DNA from: a virus
Taxonomy: Duplodnaviria > Caudoviricetes
Reading direction: 5' to 3' (one strand)
Length of the DNA: 64,000 bases
IMG/VR virus record: IMGVR_UViG_3300027286_000002
In this document: one piece after another, positions 4,956-63,180 of the stretch
How positions within the stretch are numbered: the stretch's first letter is position 1
Layout of the letters: each line of letters begins with the position of its first letter
Made by a program: the position numbers and the translations under genes
The notes under the pieces: generated by a model
Told to the model about the DNA's origin: nothing
Database searches by the model: none
The model's input: only the letters and a program-made list of their open reading frames with translations

Positions 4956-5984
4956 ATGGTAATCAATGAAATCTATCGTATTGCAAAACAAACCAAAGGC
5001 AGTAGTGCTTTACAAAAGGCTTGTTTAAGAGCATTAACAGCTAAACCAAATATGAGAAGAAAAGCTAATGTTGGCAATATTGATGGTCAACTACAAGCAT
5101 TAACAGAACTTCCTGCAAATGAACAAAAAGAAGTCAAAGTAGGTGTTTTAAGTGAAATCGTAAATAAAGTTAAAGTCCAAATGCAATCTCATATAGATGC
5201 AGGTGCTTTAGATACCTTTAAAGATCTAATCAAAGAAACAGGTCTTGCGAATAAAATTCGTAGAGGTGAAAAGATTATTACTGCACCTTCAAATCCACTT
5301 GAAAAAAAGATTAGTGAAAAAGCTAAAAGTTTTGCAGATGTTTCAGATAGCATTGCTTTTCTAGGTCGTATTACTCAAGCAGAATCACCTGAAGAAATTG
5401 TTAAAGCACTTGATATTTCTATGGATGAATTTGAAGGATACCTTTCTGTACTTTTAGGTAAAAAAGTCACAGGTCTTATTGGTGGTGGTTGGAGAAAGTT
5501 TTACTCTGCTATTGCTGAAATTAAAGAAGTATATAAGTTATTTACTGTTGAACTTGCAATGACACTTTTAGAAGCTAGTGTTTTTAGTTTTGTAGTTATG
5601 GCTTTTGGTGGTGGTTCTTTTATGGATATTCTTCATAGTATCGGACATGGCATTAAAGAAGTTCTCTATATTGTCATCTTGTCTGTTTTATTATTGGATA
5701 TTAAAGATTCCGCCCAATTCATTCGCAAACAAGATATTTTAATTAAAGCTATTCCTATTGTGCTTTTTAATGATTTAATTCGTGCATTAAAATGGTCTTG
5801 GAATAAAATCTCTACTTTCTTTAGTAAAATCGTTTCTAATACTGTTGCTTTCTTTGATTCATGGTTTGGTGATGATGAAGAAGTTGAAACATCTAATCCC
5901 AAAGTTGCTGTCTTTAGAGAAACCTTAAGACTTGCATCTGTTAATCCTGTTTTCCATCAACGAGTTTTAGAACTTTTAGATTGA
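4956..5984 (+). CDS. Membrane-segment protein, paralog of 29018..30001, putative virion internal protein
   Basis: Shared blocks with 29018 (IAF...AESxEExxKA; N-terminal L-x-x-AC; C-terminal RE-x-x-x-LA). Two hydrophobic stretches. Confidence 0.6.
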   Translation: MVINEIYRIAKQTKGSSALQKACLRALTAKPNMRRKANVGNIDGQLQALTELPANEQKEVKVGVLSEIVNKVKVQMQSHIDAGALDTFKDLIKETGLANKIRRGEKIITAPSNPLEKKISEKAKSFADVSDSIAFLGRITQAESPEEIVKALDISMDEFEGYLSVLLGKKVTGLIGGGWRKFYSAIAEIKEVYKLFTVELAMTLLEASVFSFVVMAFGGGSFMDILHSIGHGIKEVLYIVILSVLLLDIKDSAQFIRKQDILIKAIPIVLFNDLIRALKWSWNKISTFFSKIVSNTVAFFDSWFGDDEEVETSNPKVAVFRETLRLASVNPVFHQRVLELLD

Positions 5985-6526
5985 ACTTTCTTTTTTCTTT
6001 GAATATTTAATTTCTTTTCTCTTTGCATTAAATCATAAGCATGAAACTTTTGTTTCGCATCTAATTTCATATTCCCTTCTATTGTAGCAAATCCACTGTC
6101 TTTATCTATTCGTCTTGATGTCAATCCTATTACCCCCGGCATCAATGCTTTCACTAGCTTTGGATCTATCATATTAATTGATATATCCCATACCATTGCT
6201 AAAACCATTGGTGAACATACCTTTAATGGTTTACCATCATATTCGCATGGCATCTTTTCTTTATATAAAGATGCACCTGATCCTGTCTGTAATTCCATAT
6301 CAAAGAAATACACTTCCTTTGGCTCAACATTCAAAAATGGAAAATTAAAATGCAAATGCAAATTCTTATCGCCAAACACAGGTCTAATTTCTGTGATGGT
6401 TTGCCAGCCATGTATCACTATTTGCAAGTCTTTTGATTCTACTAACCTGCTAATAAATTCTTGTTCTACTTCTGTAAGTGGAATATAGATATGCTTATTA
6501 TTGCCACCACCAAAGATATTACTCAT
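5957..6526 (-). CDS. Hypothetical protein
   Basis: Long ORF. Start moved to MSNIFGGG, preceded by GAAGGGA. Confidence 0.6.
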   Translation of the reverse strand: MSNIFGGGNNKHIYIPLTEVEQEFISRLVESKDLQIVIHGWQTITEIRPVFGDKNLHLHFNFPFLNVEPKEVYFFDMELQTGSGASLYKEKMPCEYDGKPLKVCSPMVLAMVWDISINMIDPKLVKALMPGVIGLTSRRIDKDSGFATIEGNMKLDAKQKFHAYDLMQREKKLNIQRKKKVQSKSSKTR

Positions 6527-6527
6527 T

Positions 6528-6764
6528 TTATTTAATCCCTTCAGGTTTCTCTTCAAAATCACAGGTTTCAGGTTCTGTATCACATTGGTTATTGCAATCA
6601 CATTTTGGCAATTCACATTTAAAAGGCGAATTTGAATACTTTACTTTTTCATCTTTTGTTAATGCACACCAATCAGCTTTTGATCTCACTTCTTTATGTT
6701 TGTCTTGTGCTGGTGATTTGAGTATCAAACTCACTAATAAAAGCAATCCTAATAAATATTTCAT
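6528..6764 (-). CDS. Small secreted Cys-rich protein
   Basis: Signal-peptide-like N-terminus MKYLLGLLLLVSLIL. Six Cys in the mature part. Confidence 0.55.
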   Translation of the reverse strand: MKYLLGLLLLVSLILKSPAQDKHKEVRSKADWCALTKDEKVKYSNSPFKCELPKCDCNNQCDTEPETCDFEEKPEGIK

Positions 6765-6837
6765 ATTTGACCTTTCTTAGGTGTATAATGTCTTTATATT
6801 ATACATACAATAAAAGAGATACAAAAAGGATTTTATT

Positions 6838-7098: not shown

Positions 7099-7485
7099 AT
7101 GATCCGTAGAAATCCTACTTCTTCTTTGAGAACTCGTTTAGCTTCTCAATATAAGAGAGCAAATCCTGCTCTCAAGCAAGAATATGCAAAAACAATCCAA
7201 ATTATTAAAAACCAAATGGGGAAACTTCTAAAAGATGGTGATCTTTTTTTACAAAAAAGATATCAACAACTTGAAGATCAAATGCCCTGGGACCAATTGT
7301 ATCATCTCCATGCAGAATTGACAGGCGAACAACTTGATCTTGAGGATATCAAGTATAATATTCTAACTCAATGGCAAGACTTAGCTTATAGTTTAACACC
7401 TTCACTTCCTGTGGAATCTACTAAGGACTTTGAAGAACTTATGTCATCTTTAGATCAACTTAAGAATGATGTAATTAAGAGATAA
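7099..7485 (+). CDS. Hypothetical protein with N-terminal RLAS/KRA motif
   Basis: SLRTRLASQYKRAN. SD AAAGGA. Confidence 0.65.
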   Translation: MIRRNPTSSLRTRLASQYKRANPALKQEYAKTIQIIKNQMGKLLKDGDLFLQKRYQQLEDQMPWDQLYHLHAELTGEQLDLEDIKYNILTQWQDLAYSLTPSLPVESTKDFEELMSSLDQLKNDVIKR

Positions 7486-17710: not shown

Positions 17711-17811
17711 ATATGGATCTACCTTTGTTAAGTTTAACAAAGGTTTAAAAATTTAATAATCATTAAAAGAATAACCTAATAGTAAACTTATTTTTCACAA
17801 AGGATATAAAA

Positions 17812-18672: not shown

Positions 18673-21600
18673 ATGGCAATTAAAAGAGCAAATGACGAAC
18701 AAGATGAAATCGTTGATAAAAAGACACTGCTAGATTTGAGCAGATTTCTTTTGATTTTAGATAGATGTGTAGAATTAGGTACAGAGATGCCTGCTGATTT
18801 ATTAGCAGAAGGTTTTGAACTATATCGTTTAAACATTAATGGCATCAATGAAATTGGTGGACTGTTTTTTGATGAGATTGTATCAACAGTACAAAAACTC
18901 AATCCACTTTACACTAAATATCGTTCAGCTAAAAAAACATACAGTTCTGAAAGTTTACAACTTAGAATAGGTTTAATTGAAAGCTGTTTTAGATATTTAA
19001 GTACAAACAGTGCAGAAATTCTCAAGTTTGGTGAAAATGATCCTTTAATGATCAATTACATTAAAGATATTAATCAAGGTGTGCTTGAAAAAAAGACCAA
19101 ACAAAGTTTGAAAAATTTGATCAATATTCCATCATTCTTATATTTAAAGACAAGTGCCAAATCACCTACATCTTGGATTAAGAAATTGATTGATGCTAAT
19201 ATTACCAATTCAAGTGAAGTGGAAAAATTAGATCAAATGATTGCGATCAAAGAAAGCTATATCAATATTGCTACTGAAATCAGAGAGTTTGATACAAAAG
19301 CTAGATCTTTAAATCCAAACACTAAAGAATATATTGATATTCAAGATGCAAGAAGAGAAAAACTTCAAGCACTCATCACTGAAATTTATGAAAATGAAGG
19401 TAAAGATGCTAAAAGTATTTTAAATTCTTTAACAAGCACCATTCACAGTACAGATACACATATCACTGAAACAGGTAAAAGATTAAATCTAACACCTGAA
19501 CAAGAACTTGCTATGACTGTAGAAGGTAAAGCAATCATCGCCGCAGGTGCAGGCTCAGGTAAAACTCGTGTTCTTGCAGGTCGTGTTGCATGGCTTATTA
19601 AAGAAAAAGGTGTACCTGCTAATAAAATCATGGCAACATCTTTTACTAGAAACTCTGCTATTGAATTAAAAGAAAGAATCCAAAAACCTGAATTTGCAGG
19701 TGAAGGTGCTATCTATGGTGATGGTTTTGGTACATCACATTCTATTGCATATAGAATTTTAATGAAGAATACCAAAGACAATAATAAAGTAGATCATGCT
19801 TTAGACGGCAAGTTAGTGGATATTGCTCTTAATCAAATTGAAATGTCACCTAATGTTCCTAAAAATCAAGTAGGCAAATTTTCTAATAAGCCTATGTTTG
19901 ATCAATATACAGAACAAGACATTAATAACTATATTCAGATCATCAATAACTTTATGGGATATGCTAACTATTTCATGAATGATCCAAATACAAATCCTCA
20001 AGAAAAACAAGTTTTAGCTAAAGATATTGCTCTCTTGAATGTCATTCAAAAAAATAAAATCTTGCCTTATGATCTAGATGCTAGTCAAAAAGAATATCTT
20101 AATAGCATGATCAATTCTGAAAGAGGCAAGAAAGTTTTTGGTAAATTACTTGCTCAAGATAAACTTGAGAATTTAGAAAGACTTCAAAAGTTTGGTAAAT
20201 CAAATAAAACATCTGCTAAAAACTTTGAAGATCTTGAAGCTGAAGCTGATAAAAGTGAAAAAGGTTTGCCAGCGAAAGACTCACCATATTTTAAAAATAC
20301 ACCTGCCAATATGTGGTTTAATTTAGGTTTAAATGGATCTGATATTGAAGTTCAAAAGAACATTTTAAAGAATAATAAATTGTTTCAAGAATTATATAGT
20401 TTAGAAAAAGATATGGAAAACTACACAGATAAAAGACAATCTGATTGGTTTCATAAAAAAGTATCTCAATTTTACAACAATGTAATGTCTGTAAAACAAG
20501 TTAAAGAAATGTTGCCACCTAACTTTCTTAATAATGCTTTAGTCGCAGTCTATGGTGCTTATTTATGGCTTAAAGAAAATGATACTACATTTAGAGGTTA
20601 TTGCAGTGGTGATGACCAACTTGTTAAGACCATTGGATTACTTGTAAAGAAACCTGCTCTTTTAGCATCTTTACAAAGACAATATTCTCATATCATGGTG
20701 GACGAAGCACAAGACTTAAATCAATCTCAACATATCTTCTTTGGTTTAATTGCAGGCACTATCAATCCTGCGAACTTAATGCAATATACAGATGATGAAA
20801 TGCAACTCGTTGTGAAAGATCAAAATAAACCTGATGTTAAATCTAAAGTTTATGGTCGCATGAGAGCAGAATCTTATGTTTTGATTGGTGATGATAAACA
20901 AGCGATTTATGAATTTAGAGGTGCTACACCTAAAGAATTTATTGGTAAATCTGATCTTCTTAATGGTGGTTTCCAAACTGCTATCATTCCTACCAATTTT
21001 AGAAGTGGTGGTGATATTGTAGATACTGCTAATAAACTCATCTCTTATAATGAACAAATTCCTATGACTTGTGTTTCTGTTCCAGCTAAAGGCACAGGTT
21101 CTATTTATTATGAAGTAACACCTGATACTACTTTTAATAGTGATGCTATTCGCTTAATAGAAGAAATTAAAACACATATTGAATTAGGTGGAAAAGCAGA
21201 AGATTATGGTGTTGCTACTAGATCTAAGAGAGAAGCATATCCTTTCTTATTGCAAGCATTAAAAGAAAAGATTCCTTTCCGATCACAAACCAATCCTTTA
21301 ATGAAAAGCAATTTTAAGAATGTATTCAAATGGCTAAATTTTATTAGTTTGCCTGATTCTGCTGTAGATGAACTTAATAACTATGTTTTAACTTTGCATA
21401 ACACAGGACCCACTTACTTTTTAGGTGAAAAGAACTTCAATGTTGTTGTTAGGGATTTATTGCAAAGTAAAAAGAATGTTAATCTCTTAACTGATCTTTC
21501 TGAGGATAATTTTCCTATCACTGAAACATCTGTTCGTAAAAATGTTGAAGTTTATCTTAGAACTCTTAAACAAGCTAGACGAATTACAGGTAGTCCTATA

Positions 21601-22242
21601 GATTGTTTTAATTCTTTATTGCTGTTAAAAGATCAAAAAAAGGTGATTGATAGAGCAACACAAAGAGAAAAACTTAGAGATTTCGCTGAAGCCTTTTTCC
21701 CAAAAACTAGATCAGATGGTGCAGAGGATGAGGAGGCTGAAGATACATCAGCAGATTTAGATATTATGAAATCTCTTATCAATTTTAGAGATAATCCAGC
21801 TATCACTACTTTAAGAGATGCGATGAAAGAAATTACTAAATATATTACTCAAGTCGCTGAAGCTAAAGAAAAGAATACAGGTATGCTTATTGACACCATG
21901 CACCAATGGAAAGGTTTGGAATGTAAAAACCTAACCACCATTTTCTCTAGTCAATTCCCAAGAGATAAAAAAGAAGAAATGACAGATAAAGAGCATGAAG
22001 CTGAAGTAGCATCTGAAAGACGATTAGCTTATGTTGCTCTTACTCGTGGTCAAGATTCTGTTAGAGTACTTGCTACTAATGTTAAGAGAACTTGGGATTC
22101 AGCTAATAAAACTTGGAAATATGTTACTGTTCCTGTATCAAGATTTATTGAAGAAGGCTGTATTCCACAAAAAGAATCTCAAGATAAGACATCTTCTCTT
22201 GATTTTTCAAATCTTATTCATGCTATGGTATTTGAAAAATAA
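18673..22242 (+). CDS. UvrD/Rep/PcrA-family SF1 helicase with large N-terminal extension and insertion
   Basis: AAGAGSGKT, VDEAQD, IGDDKQAIYEFRGA, TNFRS, TMHQWKGLE, ERRLAYVALTRG. Confidence 0.92.
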   Translation: MAIKRANDEQDEIVDKKTLLDLSRFLLILDRCVELGTEMPADLLAEGFELYRLNINGINEIGGLFFDEIVSTVQKLNPLYTKYRSAKKTYSSESLQLRIGLIESCFRYLSTNSAEILKFGENDPLMINYIKDINQGVLEKKTKQSLKNLINIPSFLYLKTSAKSPTSWIKKLIDANITNSSEVEKLDQMIAIKESYINIATEIREFDTKARSLNPNTKEYIDIQDARREKLQALITEIYENEGKDAKSILNSLTSTIHSTDTHITETGKRLNLTPEQELAMTVEGKAIIAAGAGSGKTRVLAGRVAWLIKEKGVPANKIMATSFTRNSAIELKERIQKPEFAGEGAIYGDGFGTSHSIAYRILMKNTKDNNKVDHALDGKLVDIALNQIEMSPNVPKNQVGKFSNKPMFDQYTEQDINNYIQIINNFMGYANYFMNDPNTNPQEKQVLAKDIALLNVIQKNKILPYDLDASQKEYLNSMINSERGKKVFGKLLAQDKLENLERLQKFGKSNKTSAKNFEDLEAEADKSEKGLPAKDSPYFKNTPANMWFNLGLNGSDIEVQKNILKNNKLFQELYSLEKDMENYTDKRQSDWFHKKVSQFYNNVMSVKQVKEMLPPNFLNNALVAVYGAYLWLKENDTTFRGYCSGDDQLVKTIGLLVKKPALLASLQRQYSHIMVDEAQDLNQSQHIFFGLIAGTINPANLMQYTDDEMQLVVKDQNKPDVKSKVYGRMRAESYVLIGDDKQAIYEFRGATPKEFIGKSDLLNGGFQTAIIPTNFRSGGDIVDTANKLISYNEQIPMTCVSVPAKGTGSIYYEVTPDTTFNSDAIRLIEEIKTHIELGGKAEDYGVATRSKREAYPFLLQALKEKIPFRSQTNPLMKSNFKNVFKWLNFISLPDSAVDELNNYVLTLHNTGPTYFLGEKNFNVVVRDLLQSKKNVNLLTDLSEDNFPITETSVRKNVEVYLRTLKQARRITGSPIDCFNSLLLLKDQKKVIDRATQREKLRDFAEAFFPKTRSDGAEDEEAEDTSADLDIMKSLINFRDNPAITTLRDAMKEITKYITQVAEAKEKNTGMLIDTMHQWKGLECKNLTTIFSSQFPRDKKEEMTDKEHEAEVASERRLAYVALTRGQDSVRVLATNVKRTWDSANKTWKYVTVPVSRFIEEGCIPQKESQDKTSSLDFSNLIHAMVFEK

Positions 22243-24097: not shown

Positions 24098-25471
24098 ATG
24101 TTAAACATGATTTCTTTTTTAAAAATGCTCATCAGCATTTTAACAAAAAAAACCAAAAACGAATGGAAATTTAAAATTCAAAATGGTGGTGTTATTTCAG
24201 GTGTACATACAATCTCAGGACTAGAACTTCTTTTAGAATTTAAAAGTAGACCTGTAGATATGGGAATGTCTGTTCTAGTGAATTTAATGATTACATCTAA
24301 TGATCCACAAGAAACCATAGAAGATACTAGAAATGAATACCTAATTACAGTGGACAATCAAATTCAAGATACTCTTGTTGTTGCTGATTGGATTATGGAA
24401 GGTCTAACATATGCAGAAAGAGCATGGTATCGTGGTTACTATCGTACTGCATCTACTCAAAAAACTTCTAATGATACTAGCAATCAAATCCTTGAACTAT
24501 TAGGTGGTAGAGATAATATCAAATCTTTCACTAATGGTGGTTCTGTTCAGATACTTTCAGGAAATAAAGGAATTATTTTCCCTAGACAACTTCCTTATGG
24601 TAAAGGCGATAAAATTTATTACATCCATGTCTTAGCAAATAACAATGGAAGTTATGATGTAAACTTTTTAGGTGCAGGTAAAACACCTAATGTTAAAAAG
24701 AGTTTAAAAGATGTGCCTGCAGAAAATCTTTTATTTGAGATTATGGAAAATGCTTATAGTGGTCGTACTGCTTCTACTCAAAAAACTTCTAATGAAATTG
24801 GCAATCAAATCCTTGAACTGTTAGGTGGAAATAGAACTTTAAAAATGATGGCAGGTGCAAAACAATTTGTTGGTATGCCTAATGGTGTTCAAATCCATAT
24901 TCCTAGAACAGGCAAAGGCATTGGTTTGATTATGATTACTCTTAATGGATCTGATAGCTATGATTTAAAGTTTTATAGTCCTTTCAGTTCAAAAACATTT
25001 GATCGTAAAGTCAAGAGTAGTGAAAATGATGTACCTGTAGAAAAATTGCTTTCTACTGTTGAATATCATACAGGTCTTTCTTTACGAGTACCTAAAATTG
25101 AACAAATACCAACTCCTCCAAATTGGAGTTTATTTGGTAGAAAAGCAGGCGAATTTGAAAATCCTGTAATTAATGGTGCTGATGATGTTATTAACCTTTT
25201 AGGTGGTGAAGAAAAAATTAAGTCTATGATGTATGGTTCTCATATTGCTAGATCTAATAAAGCTATGGGTGGTATTATTTTTTCAGTTCCTCTTGTTTTT
25301 GGTGTTGGTGTTGAACATATAGGTATCTTCTTAAATGATTTAGGTACATATAATATTGATTTCTATGGGAAAATGAAAAGTACTACACCTAATTTTAAAA
25401 AGAGATTGATCAATATACCTGCTGATAAAGTTAAAATGGCTATTGCAAAATATGCCAAACTTTATTTCTAA
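24098..25471 (+). CDS. Protein with three tandem copies of a ~105-aa domain separated by RTAS/RKAG linkers
   Basis: Each copy has I-x-x-LLGG...G-x-Y-D/N-x-x-F...(D/N)-V/I-P-x-(E/D). Two linkers read RTASTQKTSN. Confidence 0.75.
   Translation: MLNMISFLKMLISILTKKTKNEWKFKIQNGGVISGVHTISGLELLLEFKSRPVDMGMSVLVNLMITSNDPQETIEDTRNEYLITVDNQIQDTLVVADWIMEGLTYAERAWYRGYYRTASTQKTSNDTSNQILELLGGRDNIKSFTNGGSVQILSGNKGIIFPRQLPYGKGDKIYYIHVLANNNGSYDVNFLGAGKTPNVKKSLKDVPAENLLFEIMENAYSGRTASTQKTSNEIGNQILELLGGNRTLKMMAGAKQFVGMPNGVQIHIPRTGKGIGLIMITLNGSDSYDLKFYSPFSSKTFDRKVKSSENDVPVEKLLSTVEYHTGLSLRVPKIEQIPTPPNWSLFGRKAGEFENPVINGADDVINLLGGEEKIKSMMYGSHIARSNKAMGGIIFSVPLVFGVGVEHIGIFLNDLGTYNIDFYGKMKSTTPNFKKRLINIPADKVKMAIAKYAKLYF
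24443..24828 (+). repeat. 65-bp direct repeat pair (24443-24507, 24764-24828)
   Basis: CGTACTGC(A/T)TCTACTCAAAAAACTTCTAATGA...CAATCAAATCCTTGAACT.TTAGGTGG. Confidence 0.9.
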
Positions 25472-25776: not shown

Positions 25777-26769
25777 ATGAAATATCTTGCTAAAGAACGA
25801 TCTGATGAAGAAAAAAAAGAAATCTATGATAAGTGGAAAAAACTTATCAATATGTCAGAAAAAGAATTAAAAGAATGGGGCGATAATCCAGATCACCTTG
25901 AAGCTTCTTTAAATAGAGAAGAGGCTAAAGATAATGGCAAAATCCAATCAGGTTATGATTCTTTTCATCGTATTAAAAGAAGAAAAGACAAACCTTTTGA
26001 AGATTGGACTGCTCAAGATTTTGATAATGCTAGTCAAGAGAATGGTTTTAATGGTCGTATGCTTGGTGGATCACCCGGGCAACCTGTAGGTTCAACAGGT
26101 AGAAGTAAATGGGAAATCTCTTTAAGAAATTGGGGACATGATCCATCTAAAGCTAGTAGTCCTGCATATAGCAAATGGAAAAAATGGAAAAAAGATAATG
26201 AAGAAGAGATTAAAAAATCCAAAGCTAAAAAAGAAGCATCTCTTATCATGCGAGCATATAAATTAAGTTATCTTTTTGATAACACAAGTAGTCTTAGAAC
26301 TGCCTGCATGAATTGTCTTATCTCATCTACACCACAGACAAAAACAGCTTTTAAAAATGAGTTAATAAAAGTAGCTAGTAGAAACCATGTGTTTAATGAA
26401 AGCATAGTGAATAATACCTTTGCTATGAGAAAAGCCACTACATTAAGCCAAATCAAAACAGGTTTAAATCCTAATATCGTAGCTAGTGATAAACAAATCA
26501 CAGGTGAATTTAATGGTAAAAATAAAGTAAATACCTTTCAAGTAGGTGAGTATCAAGTCAATGTTCTAGTCGATACCAATAACAATGTATTTACAAATTG
26601 TGATTGTGGATTTTGGAAATATCAAGGTGCTGAGTATCATGCAAAACAAGACGGATATTTATTAGGTGATCCACAAGGCACTGCTGATAAACCACAAGTC
26701 AAAGATCCAAAGGGAAACAATAAGCTATGTAAACACACATTAGCTGTTTTAGAAAGGATTATCAAATGA
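25777..26769 (+). CDS. DUF3140-like domain fused to a SWIM-type zinc finger
   Basis: N-terminal LINMSEKELKEW...WEISLRNWGHDP. C-terminal CDC...LCKH. Linker rich in K/R-x-A motifs. Confidence 0.7.
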   Translation: MKYLAKERSDEEKKEIYDKWKKLINMSEKELKEWGDNPDHLEASLNREEAKDNGKIQSGYDSFHRIKRRKDKPFEDWTAQDFDNASQENGFNGRMLGGSPGQPVGSTGRSKWEISLRNWGHDPSKASSPAYSKWKKWKKDNEEEIKKSKAKKEASLIMRAYKLSYLFDNTSSLRTACMNCLISSTPQTKTAFKNELIKVASRNHVFNESIVNNTFAMRKATTLSQIKTGLNPNIVASDKQITGEFNGKNKVNTFQVGEYQVNVLVDTNNNVFTNCDCGFWKYQGAEYHAKQDGYLLGDPQGTADKPQVKDPKGNNKLCKHTLAVLERIIK

Positions 26770-28537: not shown

Positions 28538-28948
28538 ATGGCAAAGTTATCTACTCTTAAAAATAGATTAAAGAAAGCGAATGAAATGCTTTCACATACC
28601 ATGTTTGATGAATATGATTTTAATCAAGATCAAATGATTGGTCGTGATGAATGGGAAGGCAATGATGATATGTTTTCTTTATTAGATAGCAATAAAGATG
28701 AATATCTTGATTCAGATGAAATTTCTCAAGGTGTTGGTCAATCTTTTTCTCGTTATGCGAAAGATGAAGAATATTTAACACCACAAGAAATTGCAGATAT
28801 TATGGGTGGTACTTTAGTGTCTGTTAAGCCTGCTAAAACTGCTCGTACTAAAAAAGCAGAAAGTGAAAGATATTTAACACCACAAGAGATCGCTGATATT
28901 ATGGGTGGTAAACTTGTATCTGTTAAGACTGCTCGTAAAAGATTTTAA
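28538..28948 (+). CDS. EF-hand pair protein with duplicated C-terminal motif
   Basis: Two 12-residue loops, DFNQDQMIGRDE and DSNKDEYLDSDE. YLTPQEIADIMGGxLVSVK occurs twice. Confidence 0.7.
   Translation: MAKLSTLKNRLKKANEMLSHTMFDEYDFNQDQMIGRDEWEGNDDMFSLLDSNKDEYLDSDEISQGVGQSFSRYAKDEEYLTPQEIADIMGGTLVSVKPAKTARTKKAESERYLTPQEIADIMGGKLVSVKTARKRF
28772..28927 (+). repeat. 57-bp direct repeat pair (28772-28828, 28871-28927)
   Basis: TATTTAACACCACAAGA...GATATTATGGGTGGTA...TCTGTTAAG. Confidence 0.9.
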
Positions 28949-31511: not shown

Positions 31512-31538
31512 TCCTTTAATGGATATGGAGTAAAAATT

Positions 31539-36935: not shown

Positions 36936-37249
36936 ATAGACCATCTGCTCTTAGAGTAGCATCACAATATTTAAAAGCTACTACATTTTATAAGAAACGA
37001 TTTAGTATGGATGAACTTGCTATGGCTTTAGCAGGTTACGATGATGATATTAAAAGACAATATCGTTTACAATTAATCAATGATGCTATCTTTGAGAAAA
37101 ATCGTAAAGATCCTATTTTGACTTTTGCTCAAAATGGTTTTTCTAATCCTGCTAATGGTGAACCACCTGAAGAAATTAAAAAACAAATTCGTCATGCTTT
37201 ATATAAAGCTGGTTTTGATAAAAAATTAGTTTCCGATTGGTTTAAATAA
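36932..37249 (+). CDS. Hypothetical protein with N-terminal RVASQY motif
   Basis: ALRVASQYLKA. ATGA coupling to the nuclease gene. Confidence 0.6.
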   Translation: MNRPSALRVASQYLKATTFYKKRFSMDELAMALAGYDDDIKRQYRLQLINDAIFEKNRKDPILTFAQNGFSNPANGEPPEEIKKQIRHALYKAGFDKKLVSDWFK

Positions 37250-42089: not shown

Positions 42090-42530
42090 ATGTCTTTACA
42101 TGATTTAAAAACACGATTGGCATCTGTACAAAGAATTGCTTTAATCAAAACTCAAGTTGGCGATATTGTGAGTTTTACTGATGACCCTAAACTTTGGTAC
42201 TTTAATCTTTTTATTAAAAGTTTAGTCAAAAGACTTATTCAAAAGAAAATTGCAGATCATCTTATTTATGTAGATGATAAAAAAAACCATATCTTAACTG
42301 TAAAGAACCTTGCACATGAAGATGGTGATCCTCAATTAGTTATTGAATTTGTGCATTCTAAAAAAGGCAAACTTTGGGAAACTGCTCTTAAATATAGAAC
42401 AAGAGGTACAGAAAAGAATATCAAAGGTGAAATTACTATTAAAGATCAAGAAAAGTTAAATGATGAATCTGTAGATGAAATCTCTAAACTTGTTAAAGAA
42501 TTTGTTAAGCTAGAACCACTAAAAGATTAA
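42090..42530 (+). CDS. Hypothetical protein with N-terminal RLAS motif
   Basis: Start moved to MSLHDLKTRLASVQRIA. Confidence 0.6.
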   Translation: MSLHDLKTRLASVQRIALIKTQVGDIVSFTDDPKLWYFNLFIKSLVKRLIQKKIADHLIYVDDKKNHILTVKNLAHEDGDPQLVIEFVHSKKGKLWETALKYRTRGTEKNIKGEITIKDQEKLNDESVDEISKLVKEFVKLEPLKD

Positions 42531-48313: not shown

Positions 48314-48805
48314 ATGGACAACAGAGAACTCATGGCAATTAGAATTGCTAGTATTTATTTAGAAAGCAAAGACAAAGACAAAGGCTTACCTAAAAAATAC
48401 TTGTCAGGTCTTAAAGGTAAAGATAGAAAAAAAAGAGTAAATGAAATCGACAAAAGAAAAAATGAAACTGATCCAAAGAAAAAGTTTAAACCTTTCAAAT
48501 CAGATAAAGGTGAATCCACTTCCAAAAGCCAATACTCTAAAACAGACATAGCTAAAAAGATCAGAGAAAAAATTGAAGGTCAAGGCAAAGATGCTTTCAT
48601 TGAAGCATCATCTAAAGTATCAGGTGTATCTAAATCTATTTTAAGTGAAGTTTATGCAAGAGGTGCGGCGGCATGGGCAACAGGACATAGACCGGGTGCT
48701 ACTCAACAGCAATGGTCTATTGCTCGTGTTTATAGTTTCTTATCAGGTGGCAAAACTCAATCCACTGCTGACAAAGATCTAGCTGAAAAAGCTGGACTAT
48801 TGTAA
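48314..48805 (+). CDS. DUF5824-like protein
   Basis: KKYLSGL...VYARGAAAWATGHRPGATQQQW..ARVYSF..GGKT..ADKDL. N-terminal AIRIASIYL. Confidence 0.7.
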   Translation: MDNRELMAIRIASIYLESKDKDKGLPKKYLSGLKGKDRKKRVNEIDKRKNETDPKKKFKPFKSDKGESTSKSQYSKTDIAKKIREKIEGQGKDAFIEASSKVSGVSKSILSEVYARGAAAWATGHRPGATQQQWSIARVYSFLSGGKTQSTADKDLAEKAGLL

Positions 48806-52546: not shown

Positions 52547-52697
52547 TGTATTACTCCGTAAGGGTTATGTTTTTGTAGATAGGCAATAATGACAAGTTTT
52601 TTGTTTCAAAGGTCGTGCCTAATTTCTTTCAATAGTTTATCTATTTTCTATCAGTTTGTCAATACCAAATCGCTTTTTAATGAAAGGTTTTTTAAAA

Positions 52698-54035
52698 ATG
52701 AGTTTAATCAAAAAAGCACATAGTTTGCTCCTACAAGCAAGAAATGAAACAAATCCTAGAAAAGCAATGCTTTTAAAAAAAGCATCTGCTACTACATATA
52801 ATGAAATGATTGCTTTTGCTTATATTTATGGTGTCATTACTCAAGATGATGATATTGATAATGTTACTCAAGCTATGGCAACAGGTGGTGATAATTTTGA
52901 AAATGGCATCATTAAGCTAATCTCTAAAACACAAGGTATTAGTTTTAGAAATATCTCTGTAGCTAGAAAACTTGCCACTGAATTTTTTAATGCTAGTCAA
53001 TTGGGAAACCAAAGATTTTATGAAAAGATGATCAAAGATTTTACCTATACTTTAAAAAGTGTAGATAAAGCTGAAGATGCTGTCCATAATATCCTAGCAG
53101 GTTTCAATCCTGTTACTCAAACTGCTTATCAAAAAGTAGAAGCTAAAAATGCTTTTGCTCATGCTGGAAAAGAACATAGTGTTTTACCTGCTCTTTTCCA
53201 AAAGACTGTAGAAGAACTTAAAGTTAATTCTTTAACTTCTATACCTAATAAATATCAAGATTGTGTAAACAGTATTCTTTCCACCATCACTCTTTATAAT
53301 AACAGACTAAAATTTAATAGTCGTGGCAAAGGTCTTACTCAAACTGAGAACTTTTCTGCTTTAACTAAAAATGATGATGAAACATCTACTCCTTTTGAGA
53401 ATAAACTTAAAGATAAAGATCTAAATCCTGAACAAATTGCTGGATCTATGATTACTGAAAATACTTTAGATCGTCTTATTGAACTTTTCAAATTAGGTTA
53501 TGGTTGGAAATCTATCAGAACTCCTGCTAAACAAAGAAGAGCAATTTCTCATATTCTTTTCTCTATGAAATTAGCTTATAGCAATCTTTCATCTTTAATC
53601 AGTACCAAAGACGATATGAAACTATATAGCCAATTAGCTTATCCTGCACAGAAACTTTTTGAAGAAGGTCGTGTTATTAGAGATACTAAATTAGCTGATA
53701 GTCTTGAAAACCTTAGCATTGCTGTTAATCAAGCTGATGCTCTTGATGAATTTTCAGAATTTATTGTTGCTGTCATTAATCTTTATGAATCCATTAATCC
53801 TACCGATGACATTACTGAATCTGTTGGTGAAAAAGCATGGGATAAAGCATTTTCTTCTTTCTTTCAAGAAATTGGTCAAGATATTGAAGCTATTAGTTCT
53901 GAAACTCCTCTTTTAATTCCTTCTGCACATAGTCTTATTGATAATATCGCACCTATTTTCAAACAAGGTTCTCAAAAGAAAGCATCTCTTAAATCAAGAG
54001 TAGCCTCTTTACTTAGACGATATAATCAAATCTAA
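52698..54035 (+). CDS. Helical protein with K/R-x-A motifs at both ends
   Basis: MSLIKKAHS...; ...QKKASLKSRVASLLRRYNQI. Confidence 0.65.
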   Translation: MSLIKKAHSLLLQARNETNPRKAMLLKKASATTYNEMIAFAYIYGVITQDDDIDNVTQAMATGGDNFENGIIKLISKTQGISFRNISVARKLATEFFNASQLGNQRFYEKMIKDFTYTLKSVDKAEDAVHNILAGFNPVTQTAYQKVEAKNAFAHAGKEHSVLPALFQKTVEELKVNSLTSIPNKYQDCVNSILSTITLYNNRLKFNSRGKGLTQTENFSALTKNDDETSTPFENKLKDKDLNPEQIAGSMITENTLDRLIELFKLGYGWKSIRTPAKQRRAISHILFSMKLAYSNLSSLISTKDDMKLYSQLAYPAQKLFEEGRVIRDTKLADSLENLSIAVNQADALDEFSEFIVAVINLYESINPTDDITESVGEKAWDKAFSSFFQEIGQDIEAISSETPLLIPSAHSLIDNIAPIFKQGSQKKASLKSRVASLLRRYNQI

Positions 54036-60671: not shown

Positions 60672-60958
60672 TTGACTTTACATATTTTGACCATAAAGGA
60701 TCTTTAGATGAGTATGATGTATTACTCACTGTTCTGGCTTATTTTGATATTTATCTAGCTAAACAAGTAGCAAGACTTTTATTTATTGAAGAAGATGAAC
60801 TTGTAGGCATATTGAAATACCATACTGACCATAAAGATATAAAACAATTTATTGACTATGCAGAGAAGAATAAAGATAAGTTCTTTTCGGAATATTTAGA
60901 TTACTTAGGTAATGATTTTATCAATAAAGATGATATTATTAAAATAATCGGTGTTTAG
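60668..60958 (+). CDS. Hypothetical protein
   Basis: ATGA coupling. Confidence 0.55.
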   Translation: MIDFTYFDHKGSLDEYDVLLTVLAYFDIYLAKQVARLLFIEEDELVGILKYHTDHKDIKQFIDYAEKNKDKFFSEYLDYLGNDFINKDDIIKIIGV

Positions 60959-61874
60959 CTTTTTTCTTAATAACAGGTTTGCCATAAAATCCTGACAGCC
61001 ATAAGGTTTTTAAAAACCTTTCTTTTTGTTTATCATCTAAACGATTAGGTGTTAAAAACCATAATCTAAAAGTTTCTGCAAAATCTTCATTTGCATTATA
61101 ATGCAATTTACTTGGCAATCCCAAATCTACTTGAAAATCTAATTCTTCAAGAAATCTTTCCACTTTCCCACTCTCAAATTCAGCTCGATTAAATAAATCT
61201 AAAATTTCTTCAGGATACTCATCAAAACTGACATCACGATTTTCAGGATTTAAAAAGAACTCTTCAATATCAGTAGACAAAAAACCATCCCATGTAAATG
61301 GTTTCCTTTGACTAAGATGTTCAAAAAAAGCATCATCATCCATTTCATTTTCATTTAGGTAAAATGAAAATAAGAGAAATAGTTTAATATGATCTGCTAG
61401 ATTTTTAAATCTAATTTTAGAAATATCACCATCTACAGTAAAAAGTTCTTTGATTACTTTCATAATGAAAGGTCTATTATTTTTGAGAGCATTAAAATTA
61501 TATTCTAACCATGGGGTTTGCCAAAACTTTAATGCCTCAATATGCAGGTTTTCTTGTAAAGCATGACCTATTTCATGAATCAAGGTATTATAGTAAATAG
61601 GATACTCATTCTGAAAAACATCTGTTTTAGACGATTGGTCTATGATATACATTGTTTTTCTACTAGGTACATAAATACCTAACTCTGTACTATAATCTAT
61701 ACTTGGACTATATGGACGAAGAGCAATCCTTTGCAATACTTTTTTTAAATCCCTTACTCCTCTCATTTTTACTTTTATTAAAACATCTTCTACAATGTTT
61801 AATAACTTATTTTCGGATTCAGGATTTTCTAAAGTAGACTCTACTTTAAAACCATTGATTTGAAAGTTCTTCAT
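60939..61874 (-). CDS. Zincin-like metallopeptidase
   Basis: LIHEIGHAL (HExxH) and downstream NEDFAETF. Confidence 0.75.
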   Translation of the reverse strand: MKNFQINGFKVESTLENPESENKLLNIVEDVLIKVKMRGVRDLKKVLQRIALRPYSPSIDYSTELGIYVPSRKTMYIIDQSSKTDVFQNEYPIYYNTLIHEIGHALQENLHIEALKFWQTPWLEYNFNALKNNRPFIMKVIKELFTVDGDISKIRFKNLADHIKLFLLFSFYLNENEMDDDAFFEHLSQRKPFTWDGFLSTDIEEFFLNPENRDVSFDEYPEEILDLFNRAEFESGKVERFLEELDFQVDLGLPSKLHYNANEDFAETFRLWFLTPNRLDDKQKERFLKTLWLSGFYGKPVIKKKAKHRLF

Positions 61875-61887
61875 TTTTTACAGACCT

Positions 61888-63180
61888 TTAAAAGTATCTT
61901 CTTTGAAATCTTGCCTGATTGGCTAACCTTGCTCGATTGGATAATCTTGCTCGATTGGCTACTTTGGTAGCATAACTGTATGGATTATTACTATCATCAT
62001 TAATATCAGTTACATTCTCAAAAAGATCTTTGTTTGGTGATGTACTATCGACTACTTTTTGTAATTCTTCTGAAGCATCATCAGTATCTTTCAATTCCCT
62101 TTGATGAGTATTCATTCGATATGCTTCATCTTGTTTAGGAATAATAATCTGTGCAATTTCATGTGGATTATCTTCATCAAATGGTTTTCTTGCTACACCT
62201 AAACTATCTGTACAAGCATTTAAACATGGCAATAAAGTCTTGATTGGTAAATCCATCCATACAACAGGCATCTTAATAGATGTATCACCACCACCTTTAT
62301 TGCTTTTTAGCCATTCTGAAATACCTTTAGCATTTTCATCTTGTACTAAATTCAATAAGGTTGGTTCATCTGGATTTGATGATAATGTTGTCATGCTTTC
62401 TGTTGAAAAAGCATTAACCAATCCAATCGCTGCCCATCTGTGATGTCCATCAATAATATAACCTTCTTTTGATACAATAGTTACATTATCAGGATCAAAT
62501 GTTGCCAATCCTTTGAATTTACCTAATAAGTAATTTTGTGCCATACCAAAGGATTTAGCAAAATTAATTTCTGATTGTGTTGGTTTCAATGAACCTGCTT
62601 TTACAGCTACTTGCTTTACAGCTACAGGCATTGGTTTATCTGCTGATCTTTGATGATATTTAGTCACACCATCATATCCTATTTCCATATCTGCAATACC
62701 TAGTTTTTTAGCTTGTACTGCATTTAAACTTGTGATCTCAATAAGTTTGCCTTGCAATTCTTTCTTAATTGATGGAATTGATGGAATTTCAGCATATCTT
62801 GCTCGATAAGCATCTTTTGGTGGATTTTGCCAATCAATAAGACCATTCTTTAAATTCTTTGTCACTACCTGTAAATTTTTACCTTCTAATACAGGCATTT
62901 CCATTCTAGGAATAGCTTTTCTTCCTGCACATAATGCAGGATCTGCACTACAAAAATCTACTTTCAATTTCGCACTTTTTGTAATCAATCCATTTGTAGA
63001 ATTTGATAACTGATTTGGATATAAAGCATATGCTAATACCAATGATCTTAATCCCATTCTATCATCATCTTGCAACTTGATATTATTTGCTCTTAATACC
63101 ATCTTTGCTGTTCTTAAAATACTACGACCTTCTGTAGATTGTAGATATGCTTTAATTTGTCTTGCTTCTCTTGTTAGCAT
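61888..63180 (-). CDS. ParB/Srx-like domain protein
   Basis: LKPTQSEI...IVSKEGYIIDGHHRWAA. Start moved to MLTREA, after GAAAGGA. Confidence 0.72.
   Translation of the reverse strand: MLTREARQIKAYLQSTEGRSILRTAKMVLRANNIKLQDDDRMGLRSLVLAYALYPNQLSNSTNGLITKSAKLKVDFCSADPALCAGRKAIPRMEMPVLEGKNLQVVTKNLKNGLIDWQNPPKDAYRARYAEIPSIPSIKKELQGKLIEITSLNAVQAKKLGIADMEIGYDGVTKYHQRSADKPMPVAVKQVAVKAGSLKPTQSEINFAKSFGMAQNYLLGKFKGLATFDPDNVTIVSKEGYIIDGHHRWAAIGLVNAFSTESMTTLSSNPDEPTLLNLVQDENAKGISEWLKSNKGGGDTSIKMPVVWMDLPIKTLLPCLNACTDSLGVARKPFDEDNPHEIAQIIIPKQDEAYRMNTHQRELKDTDDASEELQKVVDSTSPNKDLFENVTDINDDSNNPYSYATKVANRARLSNRARLANQARFQRRYF

What the first reader, a model, noticed from the sequence alone, without database searches (positions are those of the whole stretch)
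4956..63180. Shared terminal/linker motif on ~18 unrelated proteins: candidate capsid-packaging and maturation tag for a large injected proteome
Seen in sequence: a short motif (L-x-x-R/K-[ILV]-A-S-x-Y and/or K/R-[TQK]-A) recurs at termini or domain junctions of otherwise unrelated ORFs. Examples: 7099 LRTRLASQYKRAN; 24098 RTASTQKTSN x2 and RKAG; 25777 KKEAS..LRTAC..IKVAS; 28538 RLKKAN, KTARTKKA; 29018 RVAS, KKTAN; 34912/35694 KKIAS(I/V)YM(M)QKQAG; 36932 LRVASQYLKA; 37262 RIAQLKHRLA; 42090 LKTRLASVQRIA; 47568 IRLAK; 48314 IRIASIYL; 52698 IKKAH, KKASLKSRVAS; 60939 KKKAK; 63180 LRTAK, TKVAN; helicase KRAN, KTSA x2. I did not see it at the termini of purA, tdk, the MTases or the GMPR-like enzyme. 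Established analogy: T4 internal proteins carry a capsid-targeting propeptide removed by gp21, and phiKZ gp175 cleaves many head proteins at a tripeptide. Inference: a different K/R-x-A code marks proteins packaged and co-injected, including a helicase, ParB-like, zincin, DUF5824-like, EF-hand and SWIM proteins.
Basis: partly seen in the sequence, partly recalled or inferred. Interest (0 to 1): 0.82.

Follow-up and report, generated by a model that had tools for sequence, protein, structure and literature searches.

The report
Capsid cargo tag in jumbo phage
Many unrelated proteins of this uncultured jumbo phage and its relatives carry the same short end-tag, which matches the likely cutting sites of the phage's head-maturation protease, so it most likely loads them into the capsid and is then trimmed off, letting the packaged protein set be predicted from sequence.

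Summary
The core observation holds. [RK]-[ILV]-A-S occurs 17 times in the window plus 10 kb (2.6 expected), mostly within 30 residues of a protein end. The reversed motif and single-position variants are at background, and synonymous codons are mixed. About 10 unrelated families in the window carry it. The loose K/R-[TQK]-A half is Lys-rich background, and a few listed examples fail (zincin KKKAK, helicase KTSA).

The head genes lie just past the window end. The prohead protease has conserved R[VI]AS and K-x-AS sites in predicted-disordered linkers flanking its catalytic domain. The scaffold has 16 sites (1.6 expected), including one about 24 residues from its C-terminus.

Four related complete genomes (31-47% GC) show the same enrichment. 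They also carry a sharp N-terminal leader, such as MRRSAS-EVIRNLEMRIARLE-RQAS, on 9 and 17 unrelated families in the two genomes counted. Tunturi_5 is negative and phage G has a short form.

Best reading (about 0.6): a capsid-targeting and cleavage tag that works like the T4 capsid-targeting sequence but uses a herpesvirus-like Ala|Ser code. Packaging, the cut position and injection are inferred, not shown. Other first readers noted this motif in neighbouring windows of the same genome. T4-type (L/I-x-E) leaders were found on other DNA earlier in the scan.

The parts
4956..5984 (+). 342-aa protein with hydrophobic segments, paralogue of 29018. C-terminal tag ...TLRLAS... (nt 5928-5939); N-terminal YRIAK and RRKAN.
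   Evidence: The G1 orthologue keeps LKLAK at the same place at 48% overall identity.
7099..7485 (+). 128-aa ORFan. N-terminal tag SSLRTRLASQYKRAN (nt 7126-7164) with two sites.
   Evidence: Basic leader (+6) on an acidic body.
24098..25471 (+). 457-aa protein made of three tandem ~105-aa domains. They are joined by linkers GRTASTQKTSN (nt 24443-24454 and 24764-24775) and GRKAG (nt 25139-25150), giving a polyprotein-like layout.
   Evidence: phrog_9437 (98-aa profile) matches one unit. The G1 orthologue is a single 96-aa domain that starts just after the linker position. A G2 homologue carries the full leader.
25777..26769 (+). 330-aa SWIM zinc-finger protein with internal KKEAS and IKVAS sites (nt 26368-26379). 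Membership of the tagged set is uncertain.
   Evidence: Pfam SWIM. The sites are conserved in G1 but are interior.
28538..28948 (+). 136-aa EF-hand protein. N-terminal tag LSTLKNRLKKAN (nt 28556-28582).
   Evidence: Pfam EF-hand 2e-7. The G1 orthologue has LSSLKRRLKKAS.
29018..30001 (+). 327-aa paralogue of 4956. Sites RVAS (nt 29120-29131), KKTAN (nt 29906-29917) and C-terminal YRLAS (nt 29972-29983).
   Evidence: G1 keeps RLAN, KKTAN and YRLAN.
34912..35568 (-). 218-aa ORFan. N-terminal tag LSKKIASIYMQKQAG (nt 35518-35559).
   Evidence: The G1 orthologue has LNQKIAKLYMQ at 49% overall identity.
35694..36419 (-). 241-aa paralogue of 34912. N-terminal tag LSKKIASVYMMQKQAG (nt 36366-36410).
36932..37249 (+). 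105-aa ORFan. N-terminal tag PSALRVASQYLK (nt 36950-36976).
37262..37771 (+). 169-aa ORFan. Canonical helix leader HRIAQLKHRLARLEKK (nt 37283-37327).
   Evidence: It matches a leader HMM built only from G4 and G1 leaders, E 8e-4. Regex hit.
42090..42530 (+). ~146-aa ORFan (likely start at 42090). N-terminal tag LHDLKTRLASVQRIAL (nt 42105-42140).
   Evidence: The start is inferred from the in-frame Met.
48314..48805 (+). 163-aa DUF5824 protein. A 25-aa N-terminal extension carries MAIRIASIYL (nt 48335-48361).
   Evidence: The Pfam DUF5824 domain starts at residue 26 (6e-25). The tag is kept in G1.
52656..54035 (+). 459-aa ORFan. C-terminal tag KKASLKSRVASLLRRY (nt 53976-54023), plus LLKKAS at residue 41.
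   Evidence: Leader HMM E 0.012. The tail is nearly identical in G1 although overall identity is 43%.
61888..63213 (-). 441-aa protein with a ParB-like DGHHR motif, two genes downstream of the head module. C-terminal tag ATKVANRARLSNRARLANQARF (nt 61891-61965).
   Evidence: The G1 orthologue ends in ...SAKLAKLYQR.... phrog_2859 7e-10.
83..2671 (+). 862-aa CHAP-domain protein with LVKKMAN 21 aa from its C-terminus (nt 2594-2605).
   Evidence: The site is identical in G1, where overall identity is 80%.
18673..22242 (+). 1189-aa UvrD-type helicase. N-terminal MAIKRAN (nt 18682-18693) is a weak candidate only.
   Evidence: Pfam UvrD. G1 has SRKIAM at the equivalent place and G4 has nothing similar.
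60939..61874 (-). 311-aa HExxH zincin-like protein. Its C-terminal KKKAK is not supported as a tag.
   Evidence: The basic tail is absent from the G1 orthologue.
63237..64000 (-). 3' part of a 356-aa gene at the start of the head module, which continues beyond the window. L001 position = 10001 + (63213 - window position). In order (L001 coordinates): a 122-aa protein ending RRIASKYMSKK, MCP 4874-5755, scaffold 1900-3984, prohead protease 391-1887.

Best explanation
The motif is the recognition and cleavage site of the phage's own prohead (head-maturation) protease. It reads [RK]-x-A-[S/N, sometimes K/G] and is most likely cut between Ala and the following small residue, as in herpesvirus assemblins. 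Placed within about 10-40 residues of an N- or C-terminus, often next to or inside a short amphipathic helix (L-x-x-R-[ILV]-A-x-L; in relatives M-R-R-S-A-S | E-V-I-R-x-L-E-x-R-I-A-R-L-E | R-Q-A-S), it forms a removable address tag. The helix would dock the tagged protein to a component of the assembling prohead. The protease would then cut the tag off inside the shell, as in the T4 capsid-targeting-sequence/gp21 system.

SHOWN: the motif's specificity, its terminal position and its conservation across genomes; its clustering in the scaffold and at the borders of the protease domain; the protease's identity.

INFERRED: that the protease cuts there and at which bond; that tagged proteins are packaged; what the helix binds; that the cargo is injected.
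For: (1) MOTIF STATISTICS. Enrichment is 2-6 fold, with strong terminal bias in the window and in four related complete genomes of 31-47% GC. Reversed and substituted controls are flat.

(2) PROTEASE. The protease (phrog_18299 2e-14) best matches VZV protease (Z 7.9), PRV protease (Z 7.7) and T4 gp21 (Z 7.2) over residues 47-265. In 30 orthologues WDxxR[VI]AS at residue 25 is invariant. A [RK]xAS site is present in most orthologues within the 30 residues shown after the catalytic domain, though its position shifts. Both sites lie in segments with pLDDT below 50.

(3) DISTANT RELATIVES. The post-domain site is kept in phage G gp19 (EKVAS, LKIAS) and Tunturi_5 gp331 (HVAS, KKVAS).

(4) SCAFFOLD. 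It has 16 [RK]xA[SN] sites against 1.6 expected (0 of 2000 shuffles reach this) and only 1 reversed. Sites are conserved in position between W, G1 and G4 while the flanks diverge. One site (SRTAS/SREAS) lies about 24 aa from the conserved C-terminal tail, like the herpesvirus M-site.

(5) PROTEASE TAIL. The C-terminal tail L[VI]R[LF][AS]KL[LI]S[LF] fits the leader-helix pattern. In HK97 the protease C-terminus is the encapsidation signal (established knowledge).

(6) UNRELATED BODIES. The leader sits on 17 (G4) and 9 (G1) unrelated families. Of 82 leader proteins only 4 have any Pfam domain (JmjC/cupin, pentapeptide repeat, DUF4258, HAAS).

(7) MODULARITY. One ~100-aa domain occurs untagged in G1, with the full leader in G2, and as three copies joined by RTAS linkers in the window.

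(8) CONTROLS. Tunturi_5, which has the same MCP and protease family, shows no proteome-wide enrichment, so the test is not trivially positive.
Against: - No proteomic or biochemical data exist for this phage, so cleavage and packaging are not observed.
- The MCP's KLAS is part of a family-wide structural motif and is KLAAS in G4, so it is not evidence.
- YRLAS in the protease C-domain lies inside a confident helix and may be structural.
- The window's own tags are more degenerate than those of relatives. Only 2 window proteins match the G4/G1 leader HMM.
- Identity around the tags between W and G1 is no higher than overall identity; only the +hA core persists.
- The binding partner of the helix is unknown.
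- A site upstream of the helix (MRRSAS|...) is not obviously needed for a simple propeptide model.
Confidence: 0.6

Rival explanations
1. The tag is a docking peptide for some other shared hub, or a generic coiled-coil oligomerisation element. Candidates would be a chaperone, a replication or transcription factory, or a tail or baseplate assembly factor. On this reading [RK]xAS is simply the first half of a helical heptad ([RK]-[ILV]-A-x-L-E-x), not a cleavage site.
For: In G1 the leader reads as two heptads, KLASLE-A-RIAKLE. YRLAS in the protease C-domain lies inside a predicted helix. The one binding test gave no answer.
Against: Many sites lie in clearly non-helical or disordered contexts, for example SSKKASITPRP, WDRIRVASGN and QKVASQSKS. 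They cluster in the scaffold and at protease domain borders. They also occur as inter-domain linkers.
Confidence: 0.15
2. The sites are cut or recognised by a different protease. One option is a host enzyme, as with Prp, which trims L27 and the phage 80alpha capsid and scaffold proteins at FFA|S. Another is a degradation tag for Clp- or Lon-type proteases that times the removal of early proteins.
For: The motif is short, terminal and basic, and superficially resembles ClpX N- and C-motifs and the Prp site (established knowledge). Phage G encodes ClpP and ClpX.
Against: A conserved site lies directly after the phage protease's own catalytic domain in all relatives, including phage G and Tunturi_5, which is typical of autoprocessing. 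Site density in the scaffold is extreme. The motif lacks the Phe-Phe of Prp sites. The tag is conserved across genomes of 31-47% GC, which probably infect different hosts.
Confidence: 0.08
3. The leader is a recognition sequence for a modifying enzyme, in the manner of RiPP leaders or radical-SAM systems, rather than a sorting signal. An earlier case in this scan turned out this way.
For: The precedent is e1-127136. The leader has invariant L, R, A, L and E positions, as expected for enzyme recognition.
Against: No enzyme gene was seen consistently beside tagged genes, which are scattered over the genomes, although this was not searched for systematically. The link to scaffold and protease is not explained.
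Confidence: 0.05
4. The pattern is a chance or compositional artefact of a Lys-rich, low-GC proteome.
For: Termini are basic in all the phages examined, including the negative control. The loose K/R-x-A pattern is near background.
Against: z scores are 7-12 overall and up to 54 for the N-terminal helix. Reversed and substituted controls are flat. The signal holds in genomes of 31-47% GC and is absent in Tunturi_5.
Confidence: 0.02

Closest known systems
Phage T4 capsid-targeting sequence (CTS) of internal proteins IPI/II/III and Alt, removed by prohead protease gp21 (Mullaney and Black 1996; from knowledge). The same kind of T4-type leader was found on other genomes in this scan.
   Same: A short leader of about 10-25 residues sits on unrelated proteins. 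It ends in the head protease's cleavage motif, and the same motif is dense in the scaffold. The leader is basic or amphipathic on an otherwise acidic body.
   Different: The motif is [RK]-x-A-[S/N], not L/I-x-E. The head module is phage G-like (small HK97-type MCP, phrog_2522), not T4-like. Tags occur at C-termini and as inter-domain linkers as well as at N-termini. The full leader is a two-heptad helix bracketed by two sites. It is used on dozens of families.
Herpesvirus assemblin (UL26/UL80) R-site and M-site cleavage, consensus (V/L/I)-x-A|S (from knowledge).
   Same: The protease fold matches (VZV and PRV proteases are the best matches, Z 7.7-7.9). Ala-Ser lies at the core of the site. One site lies directly after the catalytic domain (R-site-like). 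One lies about 24 residues from the scaffold C-terminus, before the conserved tail (M-site-like).
   Different: P3 is basic and P2 hydrophobic here, against P3 hydrophobic in herpesviruses. Protease and scaffold are separate genes, not nested. The code is extended to many cargo proteins. The scissile bond has not been determined.
phiKZ gp175 / SPN3US gp245 processing of many head and ejection proteins (PMC10052503).
   Same: A jumbo phage whose prohead protease trims N-terminal propeptides from many head proteins at a short motif, with multiple motifs inside propeptides. A Ser preference at P1' is reported for gp245.
   Different: The phiKZ-type motif is S/A/G-x-E with Glu at P1. Substrates there were established by mass spectrometry. 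No shared helix leader is described.
HK97 maturation protease C-terminal encapsidation signal, and cargo-loading peptides of encapsulins (from knowledge).
   Same: A short terminal peptide suffices to load a protein into an HK97-fold shell. Here the protease's conserved C-terminal tail fits the same helix pattern as the cargo leaders.
   Different: The sequences are unrelated. Binding to the shell or scaffold is not shown here.

Membership tests
T4-type CTS / gp21 propeptide system | A short shared leader on otherwise unrelated proteins. | tested here: met
   About 10 families in the window; 17 (G4) and 9 (G1) families carry the helix leader.
T4-type CTS / gp21 propeptide system | The leader ends in the L/I-x-E cleavage motif. 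| tested here: not met
   The motif is [RK]-x-A-[S/N]. [RK].AE and [RK].AD are at or below expectation.
T4-type CTS / gp21 propeptide system | The same motif is dense in the scaffold or core protein and present in the protease itself. | tested here: met
   The scaffold has 16 sites against 1.6 expected. The protease has sites at residues 25 and 267.
T4-type CTS / gp21 propeptide system | Tagged proteins are found in the capsid and the leader is removed. | not testable with these tools
   No virion proteomics exist for this clade. The phage G proteomics paper gives no termini and its supplement is not held.
Prohead protease of the herpesvirus-assemblin / T4 gp21 fold | Sequence or profile match to head maturation proteases, and location in the head module. 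| tested here: met
   phrog_18299 2e-14. tblastn hits to annotated maturation proteases of Tunturi_5, E3 and BcepSauron. Gene order is portal, protease, scaffold, a 225-aa protein, MCP.
Prohead protease of the herpesvirus-assemblin / T4 gp21 fold | Assemblin-like fold. | tested here: inconclusive
   Foldseek's best hit is T4 gp21 at E 0.05. VIA gives VZV 7.9, PRV 7.7 and gp21 7.2, which is consistent but in the middling range. Model pLDDT is 60-85 in the domain.
Prohead protease of the herpesvirus-assemblin / T4 gp21 fold | Catalytic His/Ser residues. | tested here: inconclusive
   Invariant H58, H130, S181 and H207 in 22 orthologues are candidates. They were not mapped onto a solved active site.
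Herpesvirus-type (V/L/I)-x-A|S maturation sites | Ala-Ser at the scissile position. | tested here: inconclusive
   Ala is fixed by the search pattern; replacing it with Gly or Ser removes the enrichment. The next residue is S, less often N, and becomes K or G in some G1 orthologues. The bond cut is not determined.
Herpesvirus-type (V/L/I)-x-A|S maturation sites | Hydrophobic P3. | tested here: not met
   The position three residues before Ser is R or K, and the hydrophobic residue is one position later.
Herpesvirus-type (V/L/I)-x-A|S maturation sites | An R-site after the protease domain and an M-site about 25 aa from the scaffold C-terminus. | tested here: met
   QKVAS at 267, with equivalents in most of the 30 orthologues listed. 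SRTAS lies 24 aa from the scaffold end and is conserved in G1 and G4; Tunturi_5 has TKVAS about 18 aa from the end.
Prp / ribosomal protein L27-type host cleavage motif | A hydrophobic Phe-Phe (or similar) pair before A|S, in an L27-like N-terminal context. | tested here: not met
   P3 is basic and there is no aromatic pair. Sites also occur at C-termini and in linkers.

The most novel reading that the evidence does not exclude
A cosmopolitan clade of aquatic jumbo phages would use a herpesvirus-like Ala|Ser maturation code plus an excisable two-heptad helix to load 25-40 mostly ORFan protein families into the capsid. That is at least 10% of its gene families. The best 80 of 572 IMG/VR hits have MCPs 90-100% identical to this one. 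The tag would give a sequence-readable list of packaged, probably injected, effectors. On this reading the near-frozen MCP (94% identical where the protease is 51%) would be constrained as the common docking hub.
Probability: 0.35. Interest if true: 0.78.

Novelty: new variant of a known kind. Interest (0 to 1): 0.66.

Why it matters
If the reading is right, the cargo proteome of a very widespread group of uncultured jumbo phages can be read from sequence. Those proteins are mostly ORFans. Among the few with a known domain are a pentapeptide-repeat protein and a JmjC/cupin protein in relatives, and EF-hand, ParB-like and DUF5824 proteins in the window. Such proteins are prime candidates for first-minute host-takeover and anti-defence functions.

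It would also extend the protease and scaffold parallels between tailed phages and herpesviruses from fold to site architecture: Ala-Ser core, R-like site and M-like site.

It offers a compact leader of about 25 residues that could be tested as a protein-packaging tag. The cultivable relative phage G carries a short form (M-K-R-L-x-K-x-A-[S/N]), so the cleavage code is directly testable.

Tried and rejected
- Megablast of the helicase gene against phage records found no match.
- An exact-word search of IMG/VR for the window found none.
- No whole genome is held for this window. The region beyond the window end was reached through the look-up of encoding contigs instead.
- Pfam and PHROGs on the tagged window proteins show no family covering the tag itself.
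- A DNA-level motif was rejected because synonymous codons are mixed.
- A leader HMM built from G4 and G1 finds only 37262 (E 8e-4) and the 52656 C-terminus (E 0.012) in the window. The other window tags are a shorter or degenerate form.
- I tested whether the tags are more conserved than the protein bodies between W and G1. They are not: 52% against 52.5% for pairs under 70% identity. Only the +hA core persists.
- Complex prediction of the MCP with residues 1-45 of the 37262 protein gave no answer (score 0.02, controls not run). This is evidence neither for nor against binding.
- Foldseek of the full-length protease model against PDB gave nothing at E <= 0.001.
- The phage G capsid paper (PMC7316594) is not held, and the supplement of the phage G proteomics paper is not held. 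A check of the phage G short-leader proteins against virion proteomics was therefore not possible.
- The MCP KLAS was rejected as evidence of MCP cleavage.

Full report
SETTING. The window is 31% GC, densely coding on both strands, and carries two tRNAs. It has no close nucleotide relative among deposited phages, and no whole genome is held for it. Notes from other first readers place it in a genome of about 250 kb. They report the same kind of motif in neighbouring windows and put the MCP, scaffold and protease a few kb beyond my window's end. An exact-protein look-up of the 441-aa gene at 61888-63213 returned an ENA contig (L001). It overlaps the window perfectly (787 of 787 bases) and extends it by 10 kb.

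THE OBSERVATION IN THE WINDOW. In 83 non-overlapping ORFs (20,158 aa), [RK][ILV]AS occurs 11 times against about 2 expected from composition. Five hits are in the first 30 residues and three in the last 30. A further hit (42090) becomes N-terminal once the likely start is used.

With the extension the count is 17 against 2.6 in composition-preserving shuffles (z 9). N-terminal hits are 7 against 0.3 and C-terminal hits 4 against 0.3. The reversed motif is at background. Changing any one position removes the enrichment: acidic for basic, Gly or Ser for Ala, and Thr, Asp, Glu or Leu for Ser.

A scan of all reduced-alphabet 4-mers, comparing terminal with interior windows, puts '+hAS' second of 477 patterns in the window (odds 7.6, p 6e-5). 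It is fourth in relative G1 (p 5e-9). General basic patterns are terminal in every phage tested, including the negative control.

Ser, Arg and Ala at the motif use mixed synonymous codons, so selection acts on the protein.

After collapsing two paralogue pairs, about 10 independent families in the window carry a terminal motif.

The loose K/R-x-A or K/R-[TQK]-A pattern alone is close to background. Some listed examples fail or are weak: the zincin tail, helicase KTSA, 25777 LRTAC and the small ORF beside tRNA-Glu.

THE HEAD MODULE. Just past the window end, on the minus strand, lie these genes in order:
- a portal-like gene;
- a 498-aa protein matching 'head maturation protease' (phrog_18299, 2e-14);
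- a 694-aa very acidic coiled-coil protein (the scaffold, by position and composition);
- a 225-aa protein;
- a 293-aa MCP (phrog_2522, 6e-51);
- a LAGLIDADG endonuclease gene;
- a 328-aa and a 104-aa protein;
- a 122-aa protein ending RRIASKYMSKK;
- a 356-aa basic/ferritin-like protein;
- the tagged 441-aa protein of the window.

By tblastn the MCP and protease are related to Tunturiibacter phage Tunturi_5 (48% and 41% identity), to Bacillus phage G (38% and 34%), and more distantly to cluster C mycobacteriophages.

THE PROTEASE. In 30 orthologues from IMG/VR contigs the N-terminal WDxxR[VI]AS (residue 25) is invariant. A [RK]xAS site is present in most orthologues within the 30 residues shown after the end of the catalytic domain, but its exact position shifts. 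The C-terminal tail L[VI]R[LF][AS]KL[LI]S[LF] is conserved.

An AlphaFold2 model built on 22 orthologues gives three regions:
- a folded domain at residues 35-250 (pLDDT 60-85);
- disordered segments at 1-33 and 252-307 that contain the two sites;
- a confident helical C-terminal domain at 380-498.

Foldseek's best hit is T4 gp21 (E 0.05). VIA-align ranks VZV protease (Z 7.9), pseudorabies protease (Z 7.7) and T4 gp21 (Z 7.2) first over residues 47-265. These Z values are middling, but they agree with the profile match.

The post-domain site is also present in phage G gp19 (EKVAS, LKIAS) and Tunturi_5 gp331 (HVAS, KKVAS).

THE SCAFFOLD. It carries 16 [RK]xA[SN] sites against 1.6 expected, a count reached by none of 2000 shuffles, and only one reversed motif. 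In the W/G1/G4 alignment the sites are kept in position while the flanks diverge. Examples are ERKAS/ERKAA, GRKAS/GKFAS, PRLAS/ARLAS, KKAS, and SRTAS/SREAS about 24 residues before the conserved C-terminal tail. Tunturi_5's scaffold-position protein has TKVAS about 18 residues from its end.

A site directly after the protease domain, plus a site about 25 residues from the scaffold C-terminus, with Ala-Ser at the core, is the layout of herpesvirus R- and M-sites (established knowledge). The difference is that the residue three before Ser is basic here and hydrophobic there.

RELATIVES AND THE SECOND ELEMENT. The MCP retrieves 572 IMG/VR loci, of which the best 80 are 90-100% identical. I fetched four near-complete or complete relatives: G1 (316 kb, about 78% nucleotide identity to the window), G4 (312 kb), G2 (290 kb) and G3 (376 kb). 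Their GC ranges from 31% to 47%.

All four show the same [RK]xAS enrichment:

| Genome | Observed | Expected | z |
|---|---|---|---|
| G1 | 114 | 43 | 11.4 |
| G4 | 127 | 57 | 9.1 |
| G2 | 122 | 48.5 | 10.5 |
| G3 | 147 | 59 | 11.6 |

They also reveal a sharper element, L-x-x-R-[ILV]-A-x-[LIVM], which is almost exclusively N-terminal:

| Genome | Hits | In first 40 aa | Expected in total |
|---|---|---|---|
| G4 | 27 | 25 | 1.2 |
| G3 | 33 | 28 | 1.6 |
| G2 | 20 | 15 | 1.3 |
| G1 | 15 | 11 | 0.9 |
| Window (with extension) | 5 | 1 | 0.2 |

The reversed pattern is at background except a slight excess in G2 (4 vs 1.7).

The full leader in G3 and G2 reads M-R-R-[ST]-A-S, then E-V-[IL]-R-x-L-E-x-R-[IV]-A-R-L-E, then [RK]-x-A-S. 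That is a two-heptad helix bracketed by two sites. It sits on 17 unrelated families in G4 and 9 in G1.

Of 82 leader proteins, only four have any Pfam domain: JmjC/cupin, pentapeptide repeat, DUF4258 and HAAS.

In the window the canonical form is on 37262 (HMM E 8e-4) and at the C-terminus of 52656 (E 0.012). The other window tags are shorter forms such as LRVASQYL, KKIASIYM, IRIASIYL, LRTRLASQY and LKTRLASV.

The protease's own C-terminal tail fits the helix pattern. In HK97 the protease C-terminus is the encapsidation signal (established knowledge).

CONTROLS FROM THE SAME MCP/PROTEASE FAMILY. Tunturi_5 shows no proteome-wide enrichment ([RK]xAS 70 vs 59; helix 2 vs 2.1). Phage G shows a weak one (77 vs 56; N-terminal 20 vs 9.4). 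Several phage G proteins, including paralogue sets, begin M-[KS]-R-L-x-K-x-A-[S/N].

The cleavage code therefore looks ancestral to this head lineage. Its spread over dozens of proteins, and the helix leader, are features of the aquatic clade.

MODULARITY. The 457-aa protein at 24098 consists of three ~105-aa domains joined by GRTASTQKTSN and GRKAG linkers. The same domain is a free-standing 96-aa protein in G1 that begins just after the linker position. In G2 it carries the full leader. The DUF5824 protein's Pfam domain starts at residue 26, after the tag. W-G1 orthologues keep the +hA core while the next residue toggles between S, N, K and G.

INTERPRETATION. The most economical reading is a capsid-targeting and maturation tag: a docking helix plus protease sites. 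It is functionally like the T4 CTS/gp21 system and phiKZ/SPN3US propeptides (PMC10052503), but it uses a different code and sits in a different head lineage.

The motif's reality, placement and conservation, its concentration in scaffold and protease linkers, and the protease's identity are shown. Everything about cleavage, packaging, the receptor and injection is inferred.

One binding test (MCP with the 37262 leader) gave no answer and counts neither way.

Rivals:
- a hub-docking or coiled-coil peptide unrelated to the capsid;
- a site for another protease or a degron;
- a leader for a modifying enzyme, a caution from an earlier case in this scan;
- chance, which the strict motif excludes.

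NOVELTY. The principle is known. The scan has already reported T4-type L/I-x-E leaders on other genomes, and other first readers flagged this motif in neighbouring windows of this genome. I found no paper describing this code or leader in the held library.

It is a new variant of a known kind. It combines a herpesvirus-like Ala-Ser site architecture in a phage G-like head module, a two-part excisable leader, use at both termini and in polyprotein-like linkers, and use on at least a tenth of gene families in a very widespread uncultured clade.

Noticed in passing
L001:4874-5755 (MCP, about 4.2-5.1 kb beyond the window end) and loci L006-L085: The MCP is extraordinarily conserved. The best 80 of 572 IMG/VR hits are 90-100% identical. 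It is 94% identical between the window phage (31% GC) and G4, where the protease is 51%, the scaffold about 49% (partial alignment) and the portal about 47% identical.
   Followed up: partly
L001:5905-6855 (beyond the window end, between the MCP and the next head gene): A free-standing LAGLIDADG homing-endonuclease gene (Pfam LAGLIDADG_2) lies immediately downstream of the MCP gene. G4 has different genes at that position.
   Followed up: no
window 63237-64000 (-), continuing in L001:8907-9977: A 356-aa protein has an extremely basic, low-complexity N-terminal half (runs of R, K and Q) and a Dps/ferritin-like C-terminal domain (phrog_3636 'DNA binding protein' 3e-13; DUF5856 weak). It may be a DNA-condensing internal head protein. 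Phage G's ferritin-like DNA-binding protein was detected in virion proteomics.
   Followed up: partly
L001:1900-3984 (scaffold), compared with the G1 and G4 scaffolds: The scaffolds of W, G1 and G4 share Met/Asp-rich repeats (DMMAD, DDSMDD). W and G1 also have 3-4 units of an acidic helix (AEQLAEEVE) followed by a basic KKAN-[AL]-[RK]-L-[RK]-Q stretch that resembles the cargo tags. This could be where the tags dock, but it is untested.
   Followed up: no
window 4956-5984 and 29018-30001: These two paralogues have long hydrophobic, membrane-like segments in the C-terminal half and tag sites near both ends. They are candidate membrane-active ejection proteins.
   Followed up: no
window 12605-17740 (-): A 1711-aa protein has PKD, Ig and cadherin-like domains and a hydrophobic N-terminus (Pfam PKD_4 3e-10). 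It is a large surface or adhesin-like protein with no terminal tag.
   Followed up: no
Bacillus phage G (NC_023719.1), e.g. 28218-28733 (gp38), 255911, 482110, 167993, 435497, 178671, 163172: Several phage G proteins begin with M-[KS]-R-L-x-K-x-A-[S/N], a short form of the tag, in a cultivable phage with published virion proteomics.
   Followed up: partly
window 30058-32237 (+): Four consecutive genes of 226-238 aa; 30831 and 31539 are paralogues of each other and the run has counterparts in G4 (G4 197400-200300). Their function was not examined.
   Followed up: no
G4 176745-178130: My greedy ORF caller missed the G4 protease gene because neighbouring ORFs overlap it. Counts from that caller are therefore slightly conservative, and N-terminal positions depend on the chosen start codons.
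   Followed up: yes
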